In this document: positions 12,303 to 59,158 of the stretch, in pieces | How positions within the stretch are numbered: the stretch's first letter is position 1 | Layout of the letters: the number at the start of each line of letters is the position of its first letter | NCBI GenBank assembly: GCA_009777955.1 | Contig: WRKW01000002.1 | Location: forward strand, 5,294 to 69,293 | Reading direction: 5' to 3' | Length of the DNA: 64,000 nt | Source: Alphaproteobacteria bacterium | GTDB lineage: Bacteria; Pseudomonadota; Alphaproteobacteria; Rs-D84 | The notes under the pieces: model-generated | What the model was told of the DNA's origin: nothing | The model's database searches: none | What the model saw: only the letters and a program-made list of their open reading frames with translations | Program-made: the position numbers and the translations under genes

Positions 12303-12415
12303 ACGGCTCTCGTCAGAGAGCCGTCATGTTTTCCGTTTTTTGAATGAATAATGAATAGTGAATAATGAATAATTAATGCGTCGCGCAAAGCGCACGATAC
12401 AAATTTATATTGCAT
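12303..12415. repeat. Mosaic palindromic intergenic repeat (hairpin acggctctcgtcagagagccgt, then gaatgaataatgaataat and cgcgcaaagcgcacgataca modules)
   Basis: Related modules recur at 15174, 25047, 42164, 48043, 50694 and 54610. Confidence 0.8.
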
Positions 12416-49165: not shown

Positions 49166-49418
49166 ACGGATTCTATTATACATAAGCAATGCCGTATTTC
49201 AAGCGATTTTACCTGTATGGACTATTTAAAAAGCTATTCGCGGGCTTTGCCCGCGAATGGTTTATATAAACATTGGATTCCCACCTGCGCAGGAATGACG
49301 GCAACGAAGTTGCCGTTAAGAATATGTCCGCGAAACTGTTGCTCCCCTTCTCTTGACATATTCTTTTATATGAAATATAGTTGCCATATACAGAGAGAAA
49401 ACATAAAAGGAAGACACA

Positions 49419-50612
49419 ATGTCAAAATTTACCAAAGCTGATGTAAACAATTTTGATTTTGATACCCCCATTGCAGATGGCAAGACAAAAAAAATATGGC
49501 AGACGGTTCATCCCGGAATAGTTGCTTTCGAACAAAAACCGGATCTGGTCATGGCCAACGGCACAAGCGTAATGACGGCAGAACCGGAAAAAGCCGCTAT
49601 TTTGGTAAATTATTTGAATATCCAGAATAACAATATATTCAACTATTTGAACTCGTTGGGTTTTGCCACTACGTACCAGGGATTCAAAGACGGATTTTTG
49701 TTTCATAAAGAATGCGCGCCATTGAAAATAGAATTCGTGGTACGCTTTGCCGCATGTGACAATGCCAGCCTGTTAAAGCGAGAGCCGGAAAAATACGCGC
49801 TTTGGGATGAAAGCAGTAATTCTTATAACACCGATAAAGCAAACCGTAAATACTTTAACGAAGACGGAACGATTATTACATTTGCAAGTCCGATTTTGGA
49901 AAGTTTTCATAAATATCCATTGGTAATTACCGAAAACGGCATCGACATGATTCCCGAATCAAAGGCAAAGGAACATCCGCGTTATTTCAGAAACGGCAAA
50001 ATGACAGAGTTCATGAATGAAGATCCGATACTTATAACCCCACCGGATAATAAAGTTGTATGGCATGTGCATAACCAAAAAAAGCCGGTTGTTCCCGGAA
50101 AACCGCTGGCGATTATAGATCGTCGTGCCAAAGAATTATATGATGCAGGTAACGGAAATATCAAATTTGTACGCCGTTTGGATCAGACCGAATGCATATC
50201 TTACAGTGACGAACTGGGGCTGCAGCGACAAACATTGGAAATTGCCCAGGCGATTGATTATGCATGCCGCAATACTATGTTCAAAAAGACCGAATTTGAC
50301 GGGAATGGAAATATTGTATTTTTGGGCGAAGAAAAACCGTTCAATGTAATTGATATAAAGTTGGAGTATGGAATAACTGCGGACGGTTATGCCCTTACCG
50401 ATGATATTGTTACCAGTAATGCACGTTTTGCATGGGGCGGACTGCCAACTATGTCTTTCAAAAAAATGTTCAAAGGTGCGTATGTACCCCCCGTATTCCA
50501 GAATGCCAATGATCTTCCGGAACATCTTTTGACCGCTGCGATGTTTACAGCCGGTACGGAACACTTTTCAAAGGCAAGACAGGGCTATCTGTCCAAAAAT
50601 ATCGGCAGATAA
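49419..50612 (+). CDS. Hypothetical 397-aa protein with distant SAICAR-synthetase (PurC-family)-like N-terminal region
   Basis: ADGKTKKIWQT...VAFEQKPD and IEFVVRFAACDNASLLKR resemble PurC motifs (GKTK..Y; E.VVRN.AAGS..KR). Roughly 160 aa longer than bacterial PurC. Confidence 0.4.
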   Translation: MSKFTKADVNNFDFDTPIADGKTKKIWQTVHPGIVAFEQKPDLVMANGTSVMTAEPEKAAILVNYLNIQNNNIFNYLNSLGFATTYQGFKDGFLFHKECAPLKIEFVVRFAACDNASLLKREPEKYALWDESSNSYNTDKANRKYFNEDGTIITFASPILESFHKYPLVITENGIDMIPESKAKEHPRYFRNGKMTEFMNEDPILITPPDNKVVWHVHNQKKPVVPGKPLAIIDRRAKELYDAGNGNIKFVRRLDQTECISYSDELGLQRQTLEIAQAIDYACRNTMFKKTEFDGNGNIVFLGEEKPFNVIDIKLEYGITADGYALTDDIVTSNARFAWGGLPTMSFKKMFKGAYVPPVFQNANDLPEHLLTAAMFTAGTEHFSKARQGYLSKNIGR

Positions 50613-50693
50613 ATATAACCTATTTTTAACGGCAACTTTGTTGCCATTATTCCTGTACATGTAGTATTTCGTGGACGGAATTATAACCTGAAC

Positions 50694-50830
50694 GGCTCTT
50701 TTAAAAGAGCCGTCATGCTTTCCGTTTTTTGAATGAATAATGAATAATTAATGCGTCGCGCAAAGCGCGACACCGCCCCCAACATTGTCACTCCGGCGCA
50801 TGTGGATTAAAGTTTGAAGCGAGTCATTTG
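50694..50830. repeat. Mosaic palindromic repeat (hairpin plus gaatgaataatgaataat, cgcgcaaagcgcgac, and caacattgtcactccggcgca modules)
   Basis: Shares modules with the 12303 and 54610 repeats. Confidence 0.8.
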
Positions 50831-50881: not shown

Positions 50882-53800
50882 TTAATACCCCCATTTCCAC
50901 ATAGTGGGCATGTCGTCGTAATCGCTTAAATTATACGAATTTGAATAACAGTATGCGACATCGTAAAGGCCTGCGTTTGGCCATGCCTGATATATTGGTA
51001 TGGAAACACCATCCTTGTCCCTTGTGGTGGCCGATGATCCCGTAAGATGGAAACAATTTTCGAACGTTCCCAAGTATCTGTCTACTCTATAGTCATCCCA
51101 TATCTGATATACCCCGCCGAACATCCAATTTTTGACATTAGAACAATAAACATCATCTTCGGCTAACCGCCATTCACAATAATTATTTGTTTCGCAGAAA
51201 TTGCATTGGTAACCGTCAAATAGATTATTTAAGAAAACGGTTGGAATGTGATATGCGCCGGATCCATATTGATTATAACAATAATGTATACTACCATAAG
51301 TAAGATTTTCTTCTTCCACGGTAATGTAACCATACTGTACGTTAGCTTCAGTCGGTATTCTGACATCGCAATTGTAATAATAACCCGCGTGTTCTGTAAG
51401 GGTACTGGGATCAAGAATTGTAAAACCGTAGTATTCGCCAGCCTTATCATTTCCATAACAACTATAGTATCCGTATGTTATAGTAACGTCGTTGGTATAA
51501 TAAGCATTCCAATATTTACCATTATTATCCGTGCCATAGCACTGATAAAGACCATATTCCCATACGGCACTGTGGGTTGGAATATATATATATTCACCAT
51601 TTTCATTCGTATCCTGGCAAATCTTAATCTCATAATCCTGATAAACTTCGGTAGTGGTGAAATTTATGGGGGATCCGTTATTGTTATAGTATGTACAAAC
51701 CTTACGTTCCCAATCGTAGTCCCAATCTGTTGTGTAAAAAGAAGTCCAGATGCCTTGTTCATTGTAATGTTCACAAGCTTTTCGATTTTCATCATAATAA
51801 ACATTGGTGGTGTCGAAGGTGATGGAATTACCAAATTCGTCGCGAACATTGGTATCACATGTCATCAAGTTTTCGTTATAATATACATCATTGGTAACAA
51901 AATCGGTTCCATGATTATAGTCATGACATCTGTACGCCTGAAAAACTTCGTCTTCTGTAAAATATCTGCCTCCCCACGAACCATTATCATAGTATCCAGA
52001 GCAATAATATGGCGGATTACTATATGAATAGTAAGAGCAGCTCCAATTATTAACAATATCAAAATAGGATGGATAGCATGGATGATTGCCATCAATACTT
52101 AACCAATCTGAAACTTTCCAGCAATTATAATCACCATCGGTACTAAAATAAAAACTCCACGGTTGGTAGCAAGGAATATTACCATTGGTGCTGAATGTAC
52201 CTTCTGGATGATCTTCGCAATAATGGTTGCCATTTACGCTTAGATATTCATGGTAACCAAGATCATAGCACATATATCCATTAAAAACAAAGCCGTTATT
52301 CATAAAATCACTATAACAGTCAAGTCCATTGTTGGTTTTAATAATATTATTGTAGTTGTAATTACAAGGGATATAAGCACCATTTTCAAGAGCGTATAAA
52401 TAGCCAGAAGAGCTCCAAGCCGTATGACATACATTATGATCTGAATCAAAGAAGCCTTCGTTATTGTAATAACAGTAATCATATTCTCGATATGGATTTA
52501 CATAACGTTCATTGTGTTTTGAACAATTACTTCCGCCGTCATAACTGCTACAGGTATGAACTGAAGTCCAATTCTGAATTCCATCGAATAAACCGGCACC
52601 TATGCTTGTGATATTGGTATTCGCGAAAGTCGAAGCAAACATGCCCTCTGCCGGTGGCCCTATGATATTGGAAAATAGATTACCGGGTACTTTGCCGGTA
52701 ATATTTCTTGCGCCAGAAAATGTGCCAAGGAACATATATGATGCCGGTGACCCGAAAAGCGTACCGAATATATTGTGCGGGATTGTTCCGGTAAGTCCGC
52801 TGCAACCAACAAATGTGCCATAGTACATGGAACTTGCTGGCATACCATTTACCCCAGAAAATAACGGCGGTAATGCATACGGTTGCGAGTTCTCGCTGGT
52901 AAGGCCGCGGCAGTTTCTGAAAGTTTCATAGAACATACTATCTGCCGGTGCGCCATTAATTCCGGCAAACAGGTTTGCAGGAATTGAACCGGTCAATCCT
53001 TGACAATTCCAGAATGTCTGGCTGAACATACTGCTAGCAGCCGATCCTGTAAAAGTTCCGAACAATCCCGGTGGGATTGAACCGGTCAGGCCAGTGGCAT
53101 GGTAAAATGTAGAGCTGAACATACTATTCGCTGGCACACCATTGATTCCGGCGAATAATGCGCCGCCTATACCGGTAAAGCCGGTGTAAGCGAATGTACC
53201 ACTAAACATACTAGACGCTGGCGCACCTTTTATTCCTTTGAACAGATCTTTTGGAATAATTCCCGTTAATCCATAAACATTCCAAAATGTACTACTGAAC
53301 ACGCTGTCTGCTGGTGGTCCATCAAGTCCCGCAAATAAATCTTCTGGAATTTCGCCAGAAAGTCGGGCTTGAGAAAACGTGCCACTGAACATACCAGACG
53401 CTGGCGCGCCGGTAATACTTGCGAACAGGCGGTTTGGAAGTGTTGGGGGGGGAAAATTCCATCCATAATTTTGTCCTAAATTACCAAATGTGTACGCAAA
53501 CATACTGCTTTTTCCCGTACCTATGACACTTTCAAACAATGTTCCCGGAATTTTTCTTAAAGCATTGCAGTAGAAAGTTTGATAAAAACTTGGTATCTCG
53601 GCATTGGTGGTGCCAAGTATTGGGAACAGGCGACCCAAATCTCCACATATATCTCTCATTCTTGTATCCGTATTACAATTATTTTGCCACCATCCGACGT
53701 AATTATGATTTCTTGCGAAACTGATTGCTGGTGTCGAGCTTGATAAATTATATGCCGTTGCCCCCCCACCGATACCGACGGTGTAATTGCCCGGTACCCT

Positions 53801-54496
53801 ATATGTTCTTGAATACATTCTTTCTTCTGTGTCGGTTTTTTTTATCACGGTTATTCCGTTCCACTCTTCGCCTTCTGCTTCGCGATCGCCCCAATCTATG
53901 CAAAATTCCCCTTTGGCTGAAATGGTAAAGTGGAAAAATCCGCCGGATGGTACATCTTCAAGTTTTACAAAAAATTTGGGCTTACATTCGACCAATTTTT
54001 CGATGCCTTCAATTACCGTGGCACCGTTTGTGGCGGTTTCGGTTGAAAGGACGTGGTCGCAGAAATTGCTTCTGTTCGCTGGACCGCCAATATGTTCGTT
54101 TATCCGGTCGATTGTGCATAAAAGAAACTTCATGTTCGATACGGCTTTCCATACTACGTCATTGCCCGCTTCCAATGATACGGGAAAGGCACAATCACCA
54201 TCCAGACACATTGTTTTGGTTGATCCTACCTTGTGCTTTATGTAATCTTTCACAAGCTGGTTATTCGCAATTTGACAGCTTTGGGTCGCGGAATGCAGAT
54301 CTGGTTTCTCATAGATATCGCCGGGCATTACAACGGATGGAATATCTGGAACATTGTTAAGACAATCCGGGGATACGAACCCGATATCTTTTACCACTTC
54401 GCATGTGTCCCAGTCAACGATATATTTCGCCCATGCATGCGGCGCAAACAGTATGAATGACAGGCAAACAGCAAAGAAAAAGGAATACTTTTTCAC
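50882..54496 (-). CDS. Giant secreted tandem-repeat protein (1204 aa)
   Basis: Signal peptide. About 10 copies of a ~33-aa repeat (G.PA.SMFS.TF..C.GLTG.IP..LF.GI.G). Then a Tyr/Asn/Asp/Cys-rich region with ~26-aa repeats (YYDEN...C..YN..G....FTTT.VY). Confidence 0.7.
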   Translation of the reverse strand: MKKYSFFFAVCLSFILFAPHAWAKYIVDWDTCEVVKDIGFVSPDCLNNVPDIPSVVMPGDIYEKPDLHSATQSCQIANNQLVKDYIKHKVGSTKTMCLDGDCAFPVSLEAGNDVVWKAVSNMKFLLCTIDRINEHIGGPANRSNFCDHVLSTETATNGATVIEGIEKLVECKPKFFVKLEDVPSGGFFHFTISAKGEFCIDWGDREAEGEEWNGITVIKKTDTEERMYSRTYRVPGNYTVGIGGGATAYNLSSSTPAISFARNHNYVGWWQNNCNTDTRMRDICGDLGRLFPILGTTNAEIPSFYQTFYCNALRKIPGTLFESVIGTGKSSMFAYTFGNLGQNYGWNFPPPTLPNRLFASITGAPASGMFSGTFSQARLSGEIPEDLFAGLDGPPADSVFSSTFWNVYGLTGIIPKDLFKGIKGAPASSMFSGTFAYTGFTGIGGALFAGINGVPANSMFSSTFYHATGLTGSIPPGLFGTFTGSAASSMFSQTFWNCQGLTGSIPANLFAGINGAPADSMFYETFRNCRGLTSENSQPYALPPLFSGVNGMPASSMYYGTFVGCSGLTGTIPHNIFGTLFGSPASYMFLGTFSGARNITGKVPGNLFSNIIGPPAEGMFASTFANTNITSIGAGLFDGIQNWTSVHTCSSYDGGSNCSKHNERYVNPYREYDYCYYNNEGFFDSDHNVCHTAWSSSGYLYALENGAYIPCNYNYNNIIKTNNGLDCYSDFMNNGFVFNGYMCYDLGYHEYLSVNGNHYCEDHPEGTFSTNGNIPCYQPWSFYFSTDGDYNCWKVSDWLSIDGNHPCYPSYFDIVNNWSCSYYSYSNPPYYCSGYYDNGSWGGRYFTEDEVFQAYRCHDYNHGTDFVTNDVYYNENLMTCDTNVRDEFGNSITFDTTNVYYDENRKACEHYNEQGIWTSFYTTDWDYDWERKVCTYYNNNGSPINFTTTEVYQDYEIKICQDTNENGEYIYIPTHSAVWEYGLYQCYGTDNNGKYWNAYYTNDVTITYGYYSCYGNDKAGEYYGFTILDPSTLTEHAGYYYNCDVRIPTEANVQYGYITVEEENLTYGSIHYCYNQYGSGAYHIPTVFLNNLFDGYQCNFCETNNYCEWRLAEDDVYCSNVKNWMFGGVYQIWDDYRVDRYLGTFENCFHLTGSSATTRDKDGVSIPIYQAWPNAGLYDVAYCYSNSYNLSDYDDMPTMWKWGY

Positions 54497-54559: not shown

Positions 54560-54790
54560 TACGGCCGGTCATTTAGCCGGTAGTCGATAGCCGATAGTCG
54601 GTAGTCGGTAGAATTTTCCGTTTTTTGAATGAATAGTGAATAATGAATAATGTATGTATCGTGCGCTTTGCGAGACATCACCCCCAACATTGTCACTCCG
54701 GCGCAGGCCGGAGTGGGACTTAAAACCGCAACGCAAAGCGTTGCCAACCAGCCCAGGTCGCGTTTTGCGCGATTAGATGTACTTCCCCGG
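54560..54790. repeat. Composite repeat: (ccgact)-type block ggtagtcgatagccgatagtcggtagtcggtag plus mosaic modules (gaatgaatagtgaataatgaataat; caacattgtcactccggcgca; gcaacgcaaagcgttgcc)
   Basis: The ccgact-type block is an inverted copy of 45962-46000. The other modules match the 50694 repeat. Confidence 0.75.
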
Positions 54791-54862: not shown

Positions 54863-55399
54863 ATGAGAAAAATTTCAATATTCTGCACCCTGTTTTCCGT
54901 GCTTTGTATATCTTCGTATGCTGCCCGGGAAATTACAGTTTACCATTCCCCGAACTGTATGTATTGTCATCATGCGATTGACTTTATAAATGACAACCTT
55001 GTGAATGAATACCCGGATCTGATTGTGACACAGGTAAATGCCGCCCTGCCCGCCAATGGCGAAACTTTCCGTGCGGCGGTCAGAAAATGTGACCTGTCGG
55101 GATTTGGTGTTCCATTGGTTGTAATCGGCGACAGATGTTTCCAGGGATTTTCTGCGGCAACTGGTGATGAATACCGTAATGTCCTTGAAGCCATTGTTCC
55201 AGAAGAAGTCGCGGCCGCTGGACAAGGTTTGATTGCCGATGAAACAATGGGTATGGAAACAGAAACTGTTCATGCGGTACAGACCCCGAGTAATGATGCC
55301 CGCATTGGCAAAACCCCGGTTTTCCTTTATGCTTTATTCGGAATATTCCTTTTGGCACTGGGGACAGTGTTGTTGGCAAAAAAAAGACGCAAGGCGTGA
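54863..55399 (+). CDS. Secreted thioredoxin-fold protein (CxxC) with C-terminal membrane anchor
   Basis: Signal peptide. YHSPNCMYCHHA CxxC motif. C-terminal transmembrane segment plus KKRRKA. RBS AAAAGGAGAA. Confidence 0.5.
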   Translation: MRKISIFCTLFSVLCISSYAAREITVYHSPNCMYCHHAIDFINDNLVNEYPDLIVTQVNAALPANGETFRAAVRKCDLSGFGVPLVVIGDRCFQGFSAATGDEYRNVLEAIVPEEVAAAGQGLIADETMGMETETVHAVQTPSNDARIGKTPVFLYALFGIFLLALGTVLLAKKRRKA

Positions 55400-55431
55400 A
55401 GCGTGAGTTCGTGAAGCGTAAGACGTAAGAC
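55393..55431. repeat. Inverted-repeat element, left copy (gcgtgaagcgtgagttcgtgaagcgtaagacgtaagacg)
   Basis: Pairs at about 26/31 with the reverse complement of 55808..55847. A third related copy is at 56592..56624. Confidence 0.65.
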
Positions 55432-55438
55432 GAAAAAA

Positions 55439-55789
55439 ATGGCAGTAATGGAAGATTTGGATGTTTATAAACTAGCATATCAGATTGTTCTGAAAATATA
55501 TAAACTGACCGCACAATATCCGAATGATGAAAAATTCGGATTAATATCGCAAATGCGTCGCGCTGCAATATCAGTAGTTTCCAACTTGGCCGAAGGCGGG
55601 GCAAGAATAACTTATGGAGAGCAAAGGCACTTTGTTGGAAATGCTAGGGATTCTATTGTAGAATTGCGTACTCAAGTATGGATATCTAGAGATATCGGTA
55701 TTATGTCAAAAGAAGATTCGGTTGATATCTTGAATGATATTGAAAGAACAAAAATGATGATGAACGGATTGTTAAAAACAATAAAATAA
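55439..55789 (+). CDS. Four-helix-bundle protein (23S rRNA intervening-sequence protein family)
   Basis: DVYKLAYQ...VLKIYKLTAQYPNDEKFGLISQMRRAAISVVSNLAEG is the conserved core of this family. 116 aa. Confidence 0.75.
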   Translation: MAVMEDLDVYKLAYQIVLKIYKLTAQYPNDEKFGLISQMRRAAISVVSNLAEGGARITYGEQRHFVGNARDSIVELRTQVWISRDIGIMSKEDSVDILNDIERTKMMMNGLLKTIK

Positions 55790-55807: not shown

Positions 55808-55847
55808 CTTCGTTTTACGCCTTACGCCTTACGAACTCACGTCTTAT
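55808..55847. repeat. Inverted-repeat element, right copy
   Basis: cttcgttttacgccttacgccttacgaactcacgtcttat. Confidence 0.65.
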
Positions 55848-56582: not shown

Positions 56583-56677
56583 TACGGTATTCGTTTCACG
56601 CCTTGTGAACTCACGTTTCACACCAATATAATTTTTCCCTTTCCCTACTTTGCGAAATTTGGTACAATTGGCCTAAG

Positions 56678-59158
56678 GTGAGAATAAAACATTCATTTTT
56701 TGCACTATTGTGCGCCGTGCCGTTTGTTGTGAACGCTGCCCCGGCTCCCAATCCCCGCGCAACCGGCGATCAATCGGTGCGCCAGTCGGCCGACACGGCC
56801 GCACCGTCATCTGCTACGATTCGGAAAAGCATGCCTTCGGATTATGTTACCCGCTCTTCTTCTCGTACCGCTGTACAGCCCCGTGCAACTGCAAACCCCG
56901 CAGTTCAAAGTCGTGCGGCGGCCATTGGTGCCACGGCAAATCGTGCGCAAATGCCTTCGACCCAACCGGTAATATCGCGTCGTGCGCGATCTGCAACAAT
57001 GATGCCAGCCGGGGGTCAGGTTTCCCGCGCCGCTACATCGCGTTCTGCCGTTAATCCTGCGATGGCGCGTTCCGCCACTATGCATGGTGGTCGTGCCGGT
57101 ACAAATCTTTCCCGCGCCGGTGTTGCGCGCGCGCCAACCCCGATATTCGGCGATATGTCCAAAATGGGGGGGGCTTATGCTGCGTGCCGCGAAACCTATG
57201 CCACATGTATGGATCAGTTTTGTGCCAATAAAAGCGATGTTTATCGCAGATGTATATGTTCTGAAAAATTCCGTGAATTTGCCGATACGGAAGACGCTAT
57301 AAAAACAGCCCAAAATATGTTAAGTAACTTTGAAGACGAAAACCTTACTAATGTCAGCCTGTCCGCAGCAGAAGCGGCCAGCCAGTACCAAGCGACTGAG
57401 GGCGAAAAAGCCGCCGCGAAATTCAAAGACAAATCCGCCGCCGCGAAAATGCTGGAAAACATAGGCGATATCTTGTCTGGTAAAAGTAAGCCGGACAAAG
57501 GGGGCGCATCGAAAATATTGGCACCGATTAACTTTTCCGCCGCGATGGATGATATCTGGGGTGGTGGCGATACTTGGGGTTCCAGCAGTGGTCCGGACGT
57601 AGCAGAAATGGAGGGCAAGGCATTGTATGACGAGGTTAATCGCCAATGTTCCAATATGGCAAAATCAGCATGCGAAACCGAAGCGAATTTGCAGATGGTG
57701 CGCAGTGCATACGGGATAATGGTGGTTCAGGACTGTAACGCATACCAGAAAGGTATCAACACGATGCGTGACAAGGTTGTAGAGCGTGTGCGTGAAATGA
57801 ACGTTGCGTTACGCAATGCACGTCTGGAAGATTATCGTTCGCACAATTCGGCATCGGTCAATGAATGTATTGCAAAAGTTCGTGCGGAAATACTTCAACC
57901 GACGGCTTGTGGTCCGAATTGGGAAAGATGTCTGGACTTTACCGGAAACTATATAAACGCAACAACGGGCGAGGCTATATTCTCTATGAATTTGTTTCAG
58001 TTGTCCAGCCTTATCAATTTACCCGATCTTGGTGCCAAACCTGATCAGGTTACACAAAGATATCTTTCCGAACTGGATGCATTCAGGGCAAAAGGTTTTG
58101 TAAAGGGACCACTTGACAGCTGTCGCGATGATGCAGATAATGTGTGGAATTCTTTCAGAATGCAGGCACTTATCGAAATCGCCCAGGCTCAAGATGCAAA
58201 GATAAAACAAGTAAAGGATAGTTGTGTTGCGACCATGAAAGAATGTTATGATACGACTAGCGACGGTTTAAAAGATATGGACGATACTACTGCGCAAATG
58301 TCGGGTGCGTTGTCCGCGCGCGCGGCGAAACAGATGTGCGCGGACAAGGTAGCCGGTTGCGCAAGTCTTTACTTTTTGCCAAGTCCCGGAAATCCGACAC
58401 CGCGTGCATGTGAATTCGCAGCCAATGGAACCATTACGAATGCCCAAAGTTGTGGTGCGGCGGCTCTTATTGCCTTTGTATCGGCGGTAGACGATATTAA
58501 AATTGAAGAAGGTTGCAAGATGGCTTTGGAAAATTATGTTCAGGATCTTTGCCAACCGGCTTCGGGCGCGACGGGAAGAACTTGGCCGTGGGGATGCGTG
58601 TTGCGGGGGATATGGGCAGAGGGTGGAATTGTCGATATGGTTATAAGGCGTGCCAACGATGTATGTTTGGATGTGGCGATGGAAGAACAGCCATATAGAT
58701 ACAGCTATGACAACGATAGCCCAAAATTGATGCAGGGAGATAAAGATTTGACGGACAGTGATGAATATAACGCCAGCGGAGCCATGATTAGTGAAGTATT
58801 AGAGAGAATAATCGACGATATCGAGGGTTCGCTTATCTCGCAGATGCAAAAGGAATGCGATACTGTCGGTGGGGTATGGTTACCGACATTGGGGGGGCAG
58901 ACACTGGATCCTACGTATAAAAACAATGTTTATGGTGGAAGAGAACCGCCAACTGGCACAGTTGGATTCTGTGCCGAGAATAGTACAAGGTTGTTATGCG
59001 AAGTATTGAACGAACAAACGGGTGGTAGCGGACTTGTAACATACAGCAGTGCTGGTAATGAATGTGTGTTCCAAGCGGACTATTACAAATATCGTTGCGA
59101 AAACGATATGGGCGGAATATGGCAGGACAGCAACTGTTATGTGCAACCATTGCAATAA
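56678..59158 (+). CDS. Large Cys-rich secreted protein (826 aa), GTG start
   Basis: Signal peptide AVPFVVNAAPA. Ala/Arg/Ser-rich low-complexity region. Then a domain with more than 30 Cys. Confidence 0.55.
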   Translation: MRIKHSFFALLCAVPFVVNAAPAPNPRATGDQSVRQSADTAAPSSATIRKSMPSDYVTRSSSRTAVQPRATANPAVQSRAAAIGATANRAQMPSTQPVISRRARSATMMPAGGQVSRAATSRSAVNPAMARSATMHGGRAGTNLSRAGVARAPTPIFGDMSKMGGAYAACRETYATCMDQFCANKSDVYRRCICSEKFREFADTEDAIKTAQNMLSNFEDENLTNVSLSAAEAASQYQATEGEKAAAKFKDKSAAAKMLENIGDILSGKSKPDKGGASKILAPINFSAAMDDIWGGGDTWGSSSGPDVAEMEGKALYDEVNRQCSNMAKSACETEANLQMVRSAYGIMVVQDCNAYQKGINTMRDKVVERVREMNVALRNARLEDYRSHNSASVNECIAKVRAEILQPTACGPNWERCLDFTGNYINATTGEAIFSMNLFQLSSLINLPDLGAKPDQVTQRYLSELDAFRAKGFVKGPLDSCRDDADNVWNSFRMQALIEIAQAQDAKIKQVKDSCVATMKECYDTTSDGLKDMDDTTAQMSGALSARAAKQMCADKVAGCASLYFLPSPGNPTPRACEFAANGTITNAQSCGAAALIAFVSAVDDIKIEEGCKMALENYVQDLCQPASGATGRTWPWGCVLRGIWAEGGIVDMVIRRANDVCLDVAMEEQPYRYSYDNDSPKLMQGDKDLTDSDEYNASGAMISEVLERIIDDIEGSLISQMQKECDTVGGVWLPTLGGQTLDPTYKNNVYGGREPPTGTVGFCAENSTRLLCEVLNEQTGGSGLVTYSSAGNECVFQADYYKYRCENDMGGIWQDSNCYVQPLQ

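What the first reader, a model, noticed from the sequence alone, without database searches (positions are those of the whole stretch)
50882..54496. 1204-aa secreted protein built from two unrelated tandem-repeat arrays (PA.SMF/GLTG.IP repeats, then a Tyr/Asn/Cys-rich YYDEN repeat region)
The N-terminal half carries about 10 copies of a ~33-aa unit (..LF.GI.G.PA.SMFS.TF..C.GLTGSIP..) reminiscent of, but not matching, BspA-type surface LRRs. The C-terminal ~450 aa are extremely rich in Tyr, Asn, Asp, Gly and Cys with ~26-aa periodicity (e.g. TNDVYYNENLMTCDTNVRDEFGNSITFDTTNVYYDENRKACEHYNEQGIWTSFYTTDWDYDWERKVCTYYNNNGSPINFTTTEVYQDYEIKIC). The gene is markedly AT-richer than the surrounding housekeeping genes and is flanked by mosaic repeats and a tRNA. 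This looks like a surface adhesin or effector-like protein of foreign or eukaryote-mimicking character.
Basis: seen in the sequence. Interest (0 to 1): 0.7.

Follow-up and report, generated by a model that had tools for sequence, protein, structure and literature searches.

The report
Secreted LRR protein with orphan insert
This is a secreted leucine-rich-repeat (LRR) binding protein from a family common in small-genome gut Alphaproteobacteria, and it is unusual only because a ~440-residue tyrosine/asparagine/cysteine-rich repeat region with no detectable relative in the searched databases has been inserted near its C-terminal end.

Summary
The 1204-aa ORF (50882-54496, minus strand) is intact and has a Sec-type signal peptide.

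It has three repeat arrays, not two:
- 11 units of ~31 aa (aa 320-635; lag-31 z=10.4).
- About 11 units of ~16 aa (aa 659-832).
- About 9 units of ~26 aa (aa 833-1073).

Each unit of the last two arrays ends in one Cys. Cys spacing is more regular than 200,000 random placements.

The Tyr/Asn/Cys region (aa ~646-1083) is an insertion between the array and its terminal repeat plus cap. It has no homolog among 1.84 billion representative proteins, no Pfam hit and no predictable fold.

The foreign or eukaryote-mimicking reading is not supported. Only the insert is AT-rich, the flanking repeats are dispersed elements, and the tRNA is not adjacent.

The likely role is partner or host binding. This is inferred, not shown.

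The parts
50882..54496 (-). Whole ORF, 1204 aa plus stop, GTG start
   Evidence: Identical protein P0001 (JGI) and P0132 = MCL2017420.1 (NCBI MAG).
54428..54496 (-). Signal peptide, aa 1-23 (MKK / hydrophobic core / AWA|KY). Sec/SPase I type, no lipobox.
   Evidence: It is the only segment with KD19 >1.5, and no lipobox is present. No dedicated signal-peptide predictor was available.
53981..54427 (-). N-terminal region, aa 24-172, with 8 Cys. Partly conserved in the family from aa ~75. Mostly low-confidence in the model, with a few helices.
53753..53980 (-). PKD-like beta-sandwich, aa ~173-248 (FHFTISAKGEFCIDWGDRE...RTYRVPGNYTVGIGG)
   Evidence: pLDDT 80-95 with 6-7 strands. The aligned element in homologs hits Pfam PKD/PKD_4 (22/40 and 21/40 members). 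The family profile hits PDB PKD domains at E=0.012-0.8. The query itself gives no Pfam hit.
53630..53752 (-). Linker and N-terminal start of the solenoid, aa ~249-289 (AISF...DICGDLGRLFPIL)
   Evidence: Conserved family motif 'AISF..I.GSLGAIFPTL'. High pLDDT.
52562..53629 (-). LRR-type solenoid, aa 290-645: 11 units of ~31 aa (LF.GI.G.PA.SMF..TF..C.GLTG.IP..) plus a degenerate first unit
52001..52561 (-). Insert, part A, aa 646-832: ~11 units of ~16 aa, 'Y....(F/L)S.(N/D)G(N/D)..C', one Cys per unit
   Evidence: GC3 0.278 observed against 0.431 expected. No homolog. No Pfam hit at E<=10.
51248..52000 (-). Insert, part B, aa 833-1083: ~9-10 units of ~26 aa, '(Y/H)YN.NG....F.TT.VYYD...K.C', one Cys per unit
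   Evidence: Lag-26 z=6.3. Layout and Cys spacing. No homolog. No Pfam hit. pLDDT <50.
51077..51247 (-). Terminal LRR unit resuming after the insert, aa ~1084-1140 (HIPTVFLNNLFDG...MFGG...), with a small extra Cys-rich insertion (C1098, 1101, 1107, 1118)
   Evidence: Aligns to the family's terminal 'EIPLGLFGNLSG..MF'.
50885..51076 (-). C-terminal cap, aa 1141-1204 (YLGTFENCFHLTGSSATTRDKDGVSIPIYQAWP...LSDYDDMPTMWKWGY)
   Evidence: Matches the cap of ~50 of the top homologs (30-48% identity) and 13 representative proteins. pLDDT 83-90. Partial repeat-HMM hit.
50719..50800 (+). Downstream copy of a dispersed ~85-nt intergenic repeat. It contains a terminator-like hairpin on the minus strand (50773-50753).
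54615..54705 (+). Upstream copy of the same dispersed repeat (86-94% identical), followed by the REP-like hairpin CACTCCGGCGCAGGCCGGAGTG

Best explanation
The gene encodes a Sec-exported, soluble binding protein. It belongs to an unannotated family that is abundant in uncultured gut Alphaproteobacteria with reduced genomes.

The family module has three parts: a PKD-like beta-sandwich, a solenoid of unusually long (~31-aa) leucine-rich-type repeats with about two short strands per coil, and a conserved C-terminal cap.

The most likely function is to bind a ligand (protein or glycan) on a partner cell, host surface or particle through the solenoid, as other bacterial LRR surface proteins do.

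In this lineage alone, a ~440-aa segment was inserted between the last-but-one LRR and the terminal LRR plus cap. It probably grew by tandem amplification of two short units (~16 and ~26 aa) that have since diverged strongly. Each unit keeps a turn motif ((N/D)G), aromatic and Thr/Asn-rich strand-like stretches, and exactly one Cys. I infer that it forms a stack or string of short beta-hairpins cross-linked by disulfides between units. It would project from the C-terminal end of the solenoid as an extra Tyr/Asn/Asp-rich binding surface or a rigid spacer.

Shown:
- ORF integrity.
- The three periodicities.
- The LRR fold of the array.
- The family distribution.
- The insertion topology.
- The orphan status of the insert.

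Inferred:
- Export and cleavage of the signal peptide.
- Surface location.
- The adhesive or binding role.
- Hairpin and disulfide architecture.
- Origin by tandem amplification.
For: - ORF and signal peptide.
- 31-aa array.
- Model: pLDDT >90 for aa ~173-653 and 83-90 for the cap.
- The family profile hits the FLS2 LRR through 'LTGxIPxxLF' (E=2.8e-5) and PKD domains weakly.
- 182 homologs cover aa ~130-650 and the last ~60 aa only.
- In many homologs the array abuts the cap, and modules are tandemly multiplied.
- The strong hits in the genome collection are mostly in Ca. Enterousia and other gut Alphaproteobacteria MAGs. That order (Rs-D84) is described as having genomes under 1 Mb and a probable partner-dependent lifestyle (PMC12306168).
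- Other family members carry other disulfide-rich accessory modules, as expected for extracytoplasmic proteins.
- Insert: Cys spacing is non-random (0/200,000). Units are diverged to ~40% nucleotide identity, yet the Cys and NG positions are kept. The chance of 475 open codons at this base composition is 3e-16, and the downstream cap stays in frame. There are 26 Cys (an even number) between aa 649 and 1118.
- Only a self-hit in an exhaustive search of 1.84e9 proteins.
Against: - No experimental or expression data exist.
- No signal-peptide predictor was run.
- No route across the outer membrane is identified. There is no autotransporter barrel, lipobox or recognisable sorting signal, so the protein could be periplasmic.
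- AlphaFold gives no confident structure for the insert, either in context (pLDDT <50) or alone (mean 32). The hairpin/disulfide picture rests only on sequence patterns.
- The mature protein has an odd number of Cys (43).
- The lineage is reported to lack respiratory chains (PMC12306168). If this organism belongs to it, which was not established, the oxidant for disulfide formation is unclear.
- The insert-bearing protein is known from a single population, so selection on the insert cannot be measured.
- GC3 of the insert is lower than expected from its amino-acid content (0.305 against 0.418). That is also what relaxed constraint would give.
Confidence: 0.6

Rival explanations
1. The insert is a functionally neutral, fast-evolving low-complexity spacer. 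It would have been produced by slippage or unequal recombination in AT-rich DNA and tolerated because it sits in a loop between LRR coils. In that case the protein works like its insert-free relatives.
For: No homolog anywhere. No predictable fold. GC3 is well below expectation. Family members function without it.
Against: The units have diverged to ~40% nucleotide identity, yet one Cys per unit is kept at near-constant spacing, along with NG turn motifs. 475 AT-rich codons remain open (3e-16 by chance). The composition is not simple low-complexity: there is 13% D+E, and aromatic and Thr positions are ordered.
Confidence: 0.2
2. The gene, or its insert, is horizontally acquired foreign DNA. 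On this reading it is a eukaryote-derived or eukaryote-mimicking effector carried on a small island bounded by direct repeats near a tRNA.
Against: The conserved module is shared with more than 180 proteins, and all source-named or genome-located strong hits are bacterial, mostly gut Alphaproteobacteria. The bacterial 4fs7 is the best structural match. GC of the conserved part is normal. The repeat is a dispersed element also found at 12330. The tRNA is 1.7 kb away behind another gene. No integrase or mobility gene is among the neighbours. The insert has no eukaryotic, or any other, match.
Confidence: 0.07
3. The insert is an assembly artefact or chimera. Unrelated metagenomic reads would have been joined inside a repetitive gene.
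For: The source is a metagenome or MAG, the gene is repetitive, and the insert differs in composition from the rest.
Against: The reading frame is preserved across both junctions, and the family's terminal LRR and cap follow in frame. Repeat units are far from identical at the DNA level. The sequence is identical in a JGI contig and a 216-kb MAG contig with the same gene order, although these may not be independent data.
Confidence: 0.05

Closest known systems
BspA-like bacterial LRR surface proteins (Pfam LRR_5 type). Solved example: Bacteroides ovatus BACOVA_04585, PDB 4fs7; also 4fdw and 4h09.
   Different: The repeat is ~31 aa instead of the low-to-mid 20s (the latter figure is from memory). 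No Pfam LRR_5 or other LRR hit in the query or in the 39 other family members scanned. No sequence-level PDB hit to 4fs7. The family has its own PKD-like N-terminal sandwich and C-terminal cap. The query carries a 440-aa insert.
Plant-specific LRR receptor ectodomains (FLS2, RGFR1, GSO1, PSKR1, TMM, PGIP)
   Different: 24-aa period against 31 aa. Higher rmsd (4.6-11 A). Eukaryotic receptor-kinase context with Cys-pair caps. The bacterial family is large and self-contained, so convergence or ancient common LRR ancestry is more likely than mimicry.
PKD domain (Pfam PF00801 / PF18911)
   Same: The element before the array carries the 'WGDG ... HTY..pG.YtV.l' signature. 22 of 40 family members hit PKD at this position. 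A beta-sandwich is predicted with high confidence.
   Different: The query's own copy is too diverged for Pfam (no hit at E<=1). The profile-to-PDB matches are marginal (E 0.012-0.8).
Aromatic/Gly-rich beta-hairpin repeats of bacterial surface proteins (cell-wall-binding/YG repeats, Rhs/YD repeats), and Cys-laddered beta-solenoids such as insect antifreeze proteins. These are resemblances recalled from memory, for the insert only.
   Same: Short (12-26 aa) tandem units rich in Tyr/Asn/Asp/Gly/Thr, with an '(N/D)G + aromatic' hairpin-like motif. In the antifreeze proteins, Cys recurs at a fixed period.
   Different: No Pfam match of any kind at E<=10 for the insert or its parts. No PDB sequence match. 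One Cys per unit with periods of 16 and 26 aa is not the pattern of those families. No structural model is available to compare.

Membership tests
Leucine-rich repeat (LRR) superfamily | Tandem short repeats with a conserved hydrophobic/Asn-or-Cys ladder pattern | tested here: met
   11 units of ~31 aa: lag-31 z=10.4 and HMM units. Conserved L/F/I/C positions across the family.
Leucine-rich repeat (LRR) superfamily | Curved solenoid fold superposable on solved LRR proteins | tested here: met
Leucine-rich repeat (LRR) superfamily | Recognised by a curated LRR sequence model (Pfam LRR_1/4/5/8 etc.) | tested here: not met
   0 Pfam and 0 NCBIfam hits for the query. 0 of 40 family members hit any LRR model at E<=0.01.
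BspA-like LRR (Pfam LRR_5) | Match to PF13306, with a repeat length in the low-to-mid 20s | tested here: not met
   No PF13306 hit. The period is 31 aa. Only the fold (4fs7) and the 'F..C..L' motif resemble it.
DUF285 (PF03382) LRR-like repeats | Match to PF03382 | tested here: not met
   The query has no hit. One distant family member, P0058, hits it at 2.5e-8 in aa 557-677. None of the 40 aligned members does.
PKD domain | Match to PF00801/PF18911 and an Ig-like beta-sandwich | tested here: inconclusive
   The query has no Pfam hit. Homologs hit at the aligned position (22/40). A sandwich is predicted. PDB PKD domains match at E 0.012-0.8.
Sec-secreted protein | N-terminal signal peptide with n/h/c regions and an AxA cleavage site, and no other membrane segment | tested here: met
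   MKK + 15 hydrophobic residues + AWA|KY. It is the only KD19 >1.5 segment, and there is no lipobox. No dedicated predictor was available.
Genomic island / horizontally acquired cassette | Insertion next to a tRNA, mobility genes, island-specific direct repeats, atypical composition over the whole unit | tested here: not met
   The tRNA-Thr is 1.7 kb away behind another gene. Neighbours are queA, an epimerase, CvpA and similar, with no integrase. The repeat is dispersed. Only the insert is compositionally atypical.
Rhs/YD repeats, cell-wall-binding/YG repeats (for the insert) | Match to the corresponding Pfam repeat models | tested here: not met
   No Pfam family at E<=10 for the insert, type A or type B segments.
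Autotransporter / other outer-membrane surface-display systems | C-terminal beta-barrel or recognised sorting domain | tested here: not met
   The C-terminal 64 aa is the LRR cap shared with internal module ends in homologs. The C-terminus has no Pfam hit.

The most novel reading that the evidence does not exclude
The ~440-aa Tyr/Asn/Cys region is a newly born protein domain. On this reading, a disulfide-laddered hairpin-repeat fold with no relatives arose by tandem amplification inside an LRR binding protein of a small-genome gut symbiont. It would provide a new binding surface, for example for glycans of a protist or bacterial partner. The host family would itself be an undescribed LRR class with 31-residue repeats.
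Probability: 0.25. Interest if true: 0.65.

Novelty: new variant of a known kind. Interest (0 to 1): 0.45.

Why it matters
There are two modest points of interest.

1. The sandwich + 31-aa LRR + cap module defines a large family that no curated model detects and that the few sources naming it call only hypothetical. The genome-collection scan places its strong hits mostly in gut Alphaproteobacteria such as Ca. Enterousia (order Rs-D84). These bacteria have genomes under 1 Mb and are thought to live off partner cells (PMC12306168). Such proteins are obvious candidates for the unknown attachment machinery of that lineage. They would also justify a new Pfam/NCBIfam model.

2. The insert is a clean example of a long, internally periodic, Cys-punctuated sequence with no homolog among 1.84 billion representative proteins, placed inside a well-defined domain. 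If it folds, it is a case of domain birth by repeat amplification and possibly a new fold.

Against this, the insert is known from a single uncultured population. Its function is entirely inferred, and LRR surface proteins with lineage-specific repeat extensions are common in host-associated bacteria.

Tried and rejected
1. The word-indexed homolog search with the C-terminal 560 aa returned nothing, not even the identical P0001. I treated it as an unreliable null and replaced it with the exhaustive HMMER search.

3. AlphaFold on the insert alone gave mean pLDDT 32 and is unusable. No fold search was attempted on it.

4. The AFDB Foldseek library was unavailable.

5. The search for related loci failed in several ways:
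- With alignments A1 and A2 there was no sufficiently conserved stretch.
- With the neighbouring 397-aa gene in genome contigs it found nothing, so the window's genome is not among the species representatives and no syntenic orthologs could be examined.
- Metagenome scans with the insert and with the core found no relatives.

6. Tandem Repeats Finder sees no DNA-level tandem repeat inside the gene. The repeats are detectable only at the protein level, or as 64-80% identical 44-nt blocks in the LRR array.

7. Pfam scans found nothing in the insert, in types A and B separately, or in the N- and C-terminal pieces at E<=10.

8. Unit HMMs of types A and B hit only the query, among 135 family proteins and the six-frame window. 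tblastn of the insert against 79 family loci found nothing.

9. No paralog of the array or the insert occurs elsewhere in the window.

10. A prion-like or amyloid reading of the Tyr/Asn-rich region was rejected. With 13% Asp+Glu and ordered Cys/Thr positions it does not fit.

11. A lipoprotein reading was rejected because there is no lipobox.

12. The third homolog search was deliberately not spent on a 26-column unit profile. The word prefilter had already failed on this composition.
Full report
**1. The observation**

The ORF at 50882..54496 on the minus strand is real. It has 1204 codons, a GTG start and no interruption. The first 23 residues (MKKYSFFFAVCLSFILFAPHAWA|KY) form the only strongly hydrophobic segment, end in an AxA motif, and contain no lipobox. 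Pfam, NCBIfam and PDB sequence searches of the whole protein return nothing at E<=1.

Internal periodicity is significant:
- In aa 290-650, BLOSUM62 autocorrelation peaks at lag 31 (z=10.4 against 500 shuffles).
- In aa 840-1100 it peaks at lag 26 (z=6.3).
- An HMM built from eight hand-anchored units recovers 11 units between aa 320 and 635, plus a partial copy at aa 1141-1157.

When the C-terminal region is laid out on its Cys residues, it splits into two arrays:
- About 11 units of ~16 aa (aa 659-832): 'Y....(F/L)S.(N/D)G(N/D)..C'.
- About 9-10 units of ~26 aa (aa 833-1073): '(Y/H)YN.NG....F.TT.VYYD...K.C'.

Each unit ends in a single Cys. Cys-to-Cys spacings have coefficients of variation of 0.14 and 0.079. 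None of 200,000 random placements is as regular.

**2. Is it an artefact?**

This is unlikely.
- The 26-aa units share only 40% mean (55% maximum) nucleotide identity.
- The LRR units share 64-80% over 44-nt blocks.
- Tandem Repeats Finder finds nothing inside the gene. Collapse or expansion of near-identical repeats is therefore not a concern.
- The chance that 475 codons of this base composition stay open is 3e-16.
- The family's conserved terminal repeat and cap follow the insert in frame.
- The identical protein occurs on a JGI metagenome contig with the same gene order, and as NCBI MCL2017420.1 on a 216-kb contig of an Alphaproteobacteria MAG. These may not be independent data sets.

**3. 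What the conserved part is**

A search of 5.8 billion protein clusters gave 182 homologs. The few that carry a source name are 'hypothetical protein' from Alphaproteobacteria or Proteobacteria MAGs. They cover only aa ~130-650 and, in about 50 of the top 119, the last ~60 aa. Almost none cover aa 680-1100.

Inspection of the homologs shows a recurring module:
- A beta-sandwich with a PKD signature ('F.ISAAG.F.VDWGDG...HTY..G.YTV.LGG').
- A start motif ('AISF..I.GSLGAIFPTL.DGSQPRFY').
- A variable number of ~31-aa units ('IPENLFAGISGAPASSMFSGTFSGCSGLTGS').
- A cap ('C.GLTG.SARNPDGT.LY..FP.AT...V..MY.G.TGLSDY..IP..WK').

The module is often tandemly multiplied; one homolog has five caps. In homologs the sandwich hits Pfam PKD/PKD_4 (22 and 21 of 40 members). 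No member hits any Pfam LRR model, including LRR_5, or DUF285. One more distant member, P0058, has a DUF285 hit.

An AlphaFold2 model of aa 24-1204 was built with a 40-sequence alignment:
- Confident for the sandwich and the array (aa ~173-653, mostly pLDDT >90).
- Confident for the cap (aa ~1133-1198, pLDDT 83-90).
- Not confident for aa 656-1120 or for most of aa 24-170.

- Other bacterial LRRs: 4fdw 10.8, 4h09 10.1, TpLRR 8.1.

A profile of the sandwich plus the first repeats hits the FLS2 ectodomain through 'LTGxIPxxLF' (E=2.8e-5), and PKD domains marginally.

The N-terminal array is therefore an LRR-type solenoid with an unusually long repeat that curated sequence models do not detect. 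It resembles both BspA-like and plant-type LRRs without belonging to either.

**4. Where the family lives**

A scan of one genome per species, using a consensus-like member (P0006), gave strong hits almost exclusively in uncultured gut Alphaproteobacteria. These include Candidatus Enterousia, sheep, goat and human-gut MAGs, and a termite-gut MAG. A few contigs are binned to other taxa, and there is a weaker hit in Candidatus Nutricula glyptotermitis. The weak hits in Flavobacteriia appear to match little more than the PKD-like element.

Ca. Enterousia belongs to order Rs-D84. Its members have genomes under 1 Mb, lack the TCA cycle and respiratory chains, and are proposed to obtain metabolites from other cells (PMC12306168).

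The window's own genome is not among the species representatives. Its assignment to that order is therefore an inference from the family distribution and the NCBI name. There is no paralog in the window.

**5. What the Tyr/Asn/Cys region is**

The query's C-terminus was aligned with 11 homologs whose array runs straight into the cap. Query aa ~1084-1201 ('HIPTVFLNNLFDG ... YLGTFENCFHLTGSSA..RDKDGVSIY...NLSDYDDMPTMWK') corresponds to the family's terminal LRR plus cap. The region aa ~646-1083 is thus an insertion inside the LRR domain. There is a further small Cys-rich insertion (aa ~1098-1136) in the terminal unit.

The insert has no detectable relative:
- An exhaustive phmmer search of aa 645-1204 against 1.84 billion representatives found only the protein itself covering the insert. 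The other 13 hits match only the last 60-100 aa.
- Pfam finds nothing in the insert or its parts at E<=10.
- The insert has no match in 79 family loci, in the metagenome contigs, or elsewhere in the window.

No family member approaches its composition. The maximum Tyr in a 200-aa window is 0.17, against a family maximum of 0.115. Several members do carry other Cys-rich accessory modules of the Ephrin-receptor-like type, with irregular CxxC spacing.

AlphaFold cannot model the insert, either in context or alone.

**6. Composition and context**

Whole-gene GC (0.411) is only about 1.2 sd below the window's other ORFs (0.450 +/- 0.032). The conserved parts are normal (0.44-0.46). Only the insert is AT-rich (GC 0.34-0.37; GC3 0.28-0.34).

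Part of this follows from Tyr, Asn and Asp codons. GC3 is nevertheless lower than expected from the amino-acid content and the window's codon usage. The insert shows 0.305 against 0.418 and the LRR array 0.391 against 0.478, while the reference genes deviate by sd 0.031 with a minimum of -0.071. This fits a fast-evolving or weakly expressed gene. It is not specific evidence of foreign origin.

The ~85-nt direct repeats on both sides (50719-50800 and 54615-54705, 86-94% identical) belong to a dispersed intergenic element. Part of it recurs at 12330. It contains a terminator-like hairpin and a REP-like palindrome.

The tRNA-Thr lies 1.7 kb away, beyond a 397-aa gene. The neighbours are queA, an epimerase, a 23S-rRNA-IVP protein, CvpA and two unannotated exported proteins, with no mobility genes.

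**7. Most likely mechanism**

The protein is exported by Sec. It folds into a sandwich plus LRR solenoid that binds a ligand on a partner cell, host surface or particle. That is the general role of secreted bacterial LRR proteins, and it is a plausible need for a partner-dependent, reduced-genome lineage that has expanded this family.

The insert most likely arose by tandem amplification of two short units. Because the Cys period and the (N/D)G turns are retained despite deep nucleotide divergence, it is probably a structured string of beta-hairpins linked by disulfides. There are 26 Cys between aa 649 and 1118. It would act as an added Tyr/Asn/Asp-rich binding surface or as a rigid spacer.

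These functional statements are inferences. The route across the outer membrane and the source of oxidising power are unknown. The divergent upstream gene may be relevant: it encodes an exported, membrane-anchored CxxC protein with sub-threshold glutaredoxin and ScsC similarity.

**8. Rivals**

- A neutral slippage-generated spacer (about 0.2) fits the orphan status and the low GC3, but not the conserved Cys period.
- Foreign or eukaryote-mimicking origin (about 0.07) is contradicted by the family's distribution and by the normal composition of the conserved part.
- An assembly chimera (about 0.05) is contradicted by frame preservation and the diverged repeats.

**9. Verdict**

This is a new variant of a known kind. 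It is an LRR-type secreted protein from an undescribed, Pfam-invisible LRR family of gut Alphaproteobacteria, carrying a unique Cys-periodic repeat insertion of unknown fold. Interest is moderate (0.45). The family deserves a model and may mediate attachment in Rs-D84 bacteria, and the insert is a candidate case of domain birth. Both points rest on a single uncultured population and on inference.

Noticed in passing
window 54863-55399 (+): The divergent upstream neighbour is 178 aa from the ATG at 54863. The 249-aa ORF from 54650 starts inside the dispersed repeat and is probably spurious. The protein has a signal peptide, a CxxC motif ('YHSPNCMYCHHA'), a glutaredoxin-like 'GVPLVVIGDRCFQGF' and a C-terminal TM helix. 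Only sub-threshold hits were found (Pfam Glutaredoxin E=0.012; PDB ScsC 4gxz E=0.016). It may be an exported thiol-disulfide oxidoreductase sitting next to two Cys-rich secreted proteins.
   Followed up: partly
window 56678-59158 (+): An 826-aa ORF with an N-terminal signal-like sequence and many Cys, and no Pfam hit. It is present in the same order on the JGI contig L001, where it is called as 813 aa. It is another unannotated exported protein in the same neighbourhood.
   Followed up: no
window 50719-50800, 54615-54705, 12330-12350: A dispersed ~85-nt intergenic element. It comprises a 'TTTCCGTTTTTTGAATGAATA' part, (AATGAAT)n, a GC-rich terminator-like hairpin and 'CCCCCAACATTGTCACTCCGGCGCA', followed at 54690-54712 by a REP-like palindrome. 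Two copies bracket the target gene as direct repeats, which could mediate its deletion.
   Followed up: partly
window 49283-49327 / 50618-50662: A 45-nt inverted repeat (82% complementary) brackets the 397-aa ORF 49419-50612. That ORF matches SAICAR synthetase only over its first ~95 residues (E=1.9e-7). No relative was found in the species-representative genomes by the 8-aa peptide-pattern scan.
   Followed up: no
window 55402-55434 / 55809-55841 / 56592-56624: 33-nt repeats ('CGTGAGTTCGTGAAGCGTAAGACG...') in inverted orientation bracket the 23S-rRNA-intervening-sequence-protein gene (55439-55789). A further copy lies after cvpA.
   Followed up: no
window 54574-54611: A short tandem repeat (TAGTCGG/TAGCCGG, 5.4 copies of 7 nt) lies ~80-115 nt upstream of the target's start codon, in its putative promoter region.
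   Followed up: no
L011, L013, L021, L022, L023: Family members appear on contigs binned to Muribaculaceae, Paludibacteraceae, Clostridia and Tannerellaceae. One also appears in Candidatus Nutricula glyptotermitis (29% identity, E=3e-33), which a termite-flagellate endosymbiont paper (PMC11707648, seen only in the search listing) appears to place in Bifidobacteriaceae. These are either mis-binned contigs or horizontal transfer among gut organisms.
   Followed up: no
tool behaviour: The word-indexed protein search returned no hit for the Tyr/Asn/Cys-rich query, not even the identical database entry. The exhaustive HMMER search found that entry at 1342 bits. Null results from the indexed search are unreliable for sequences of this composition.
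   Followed up: yes
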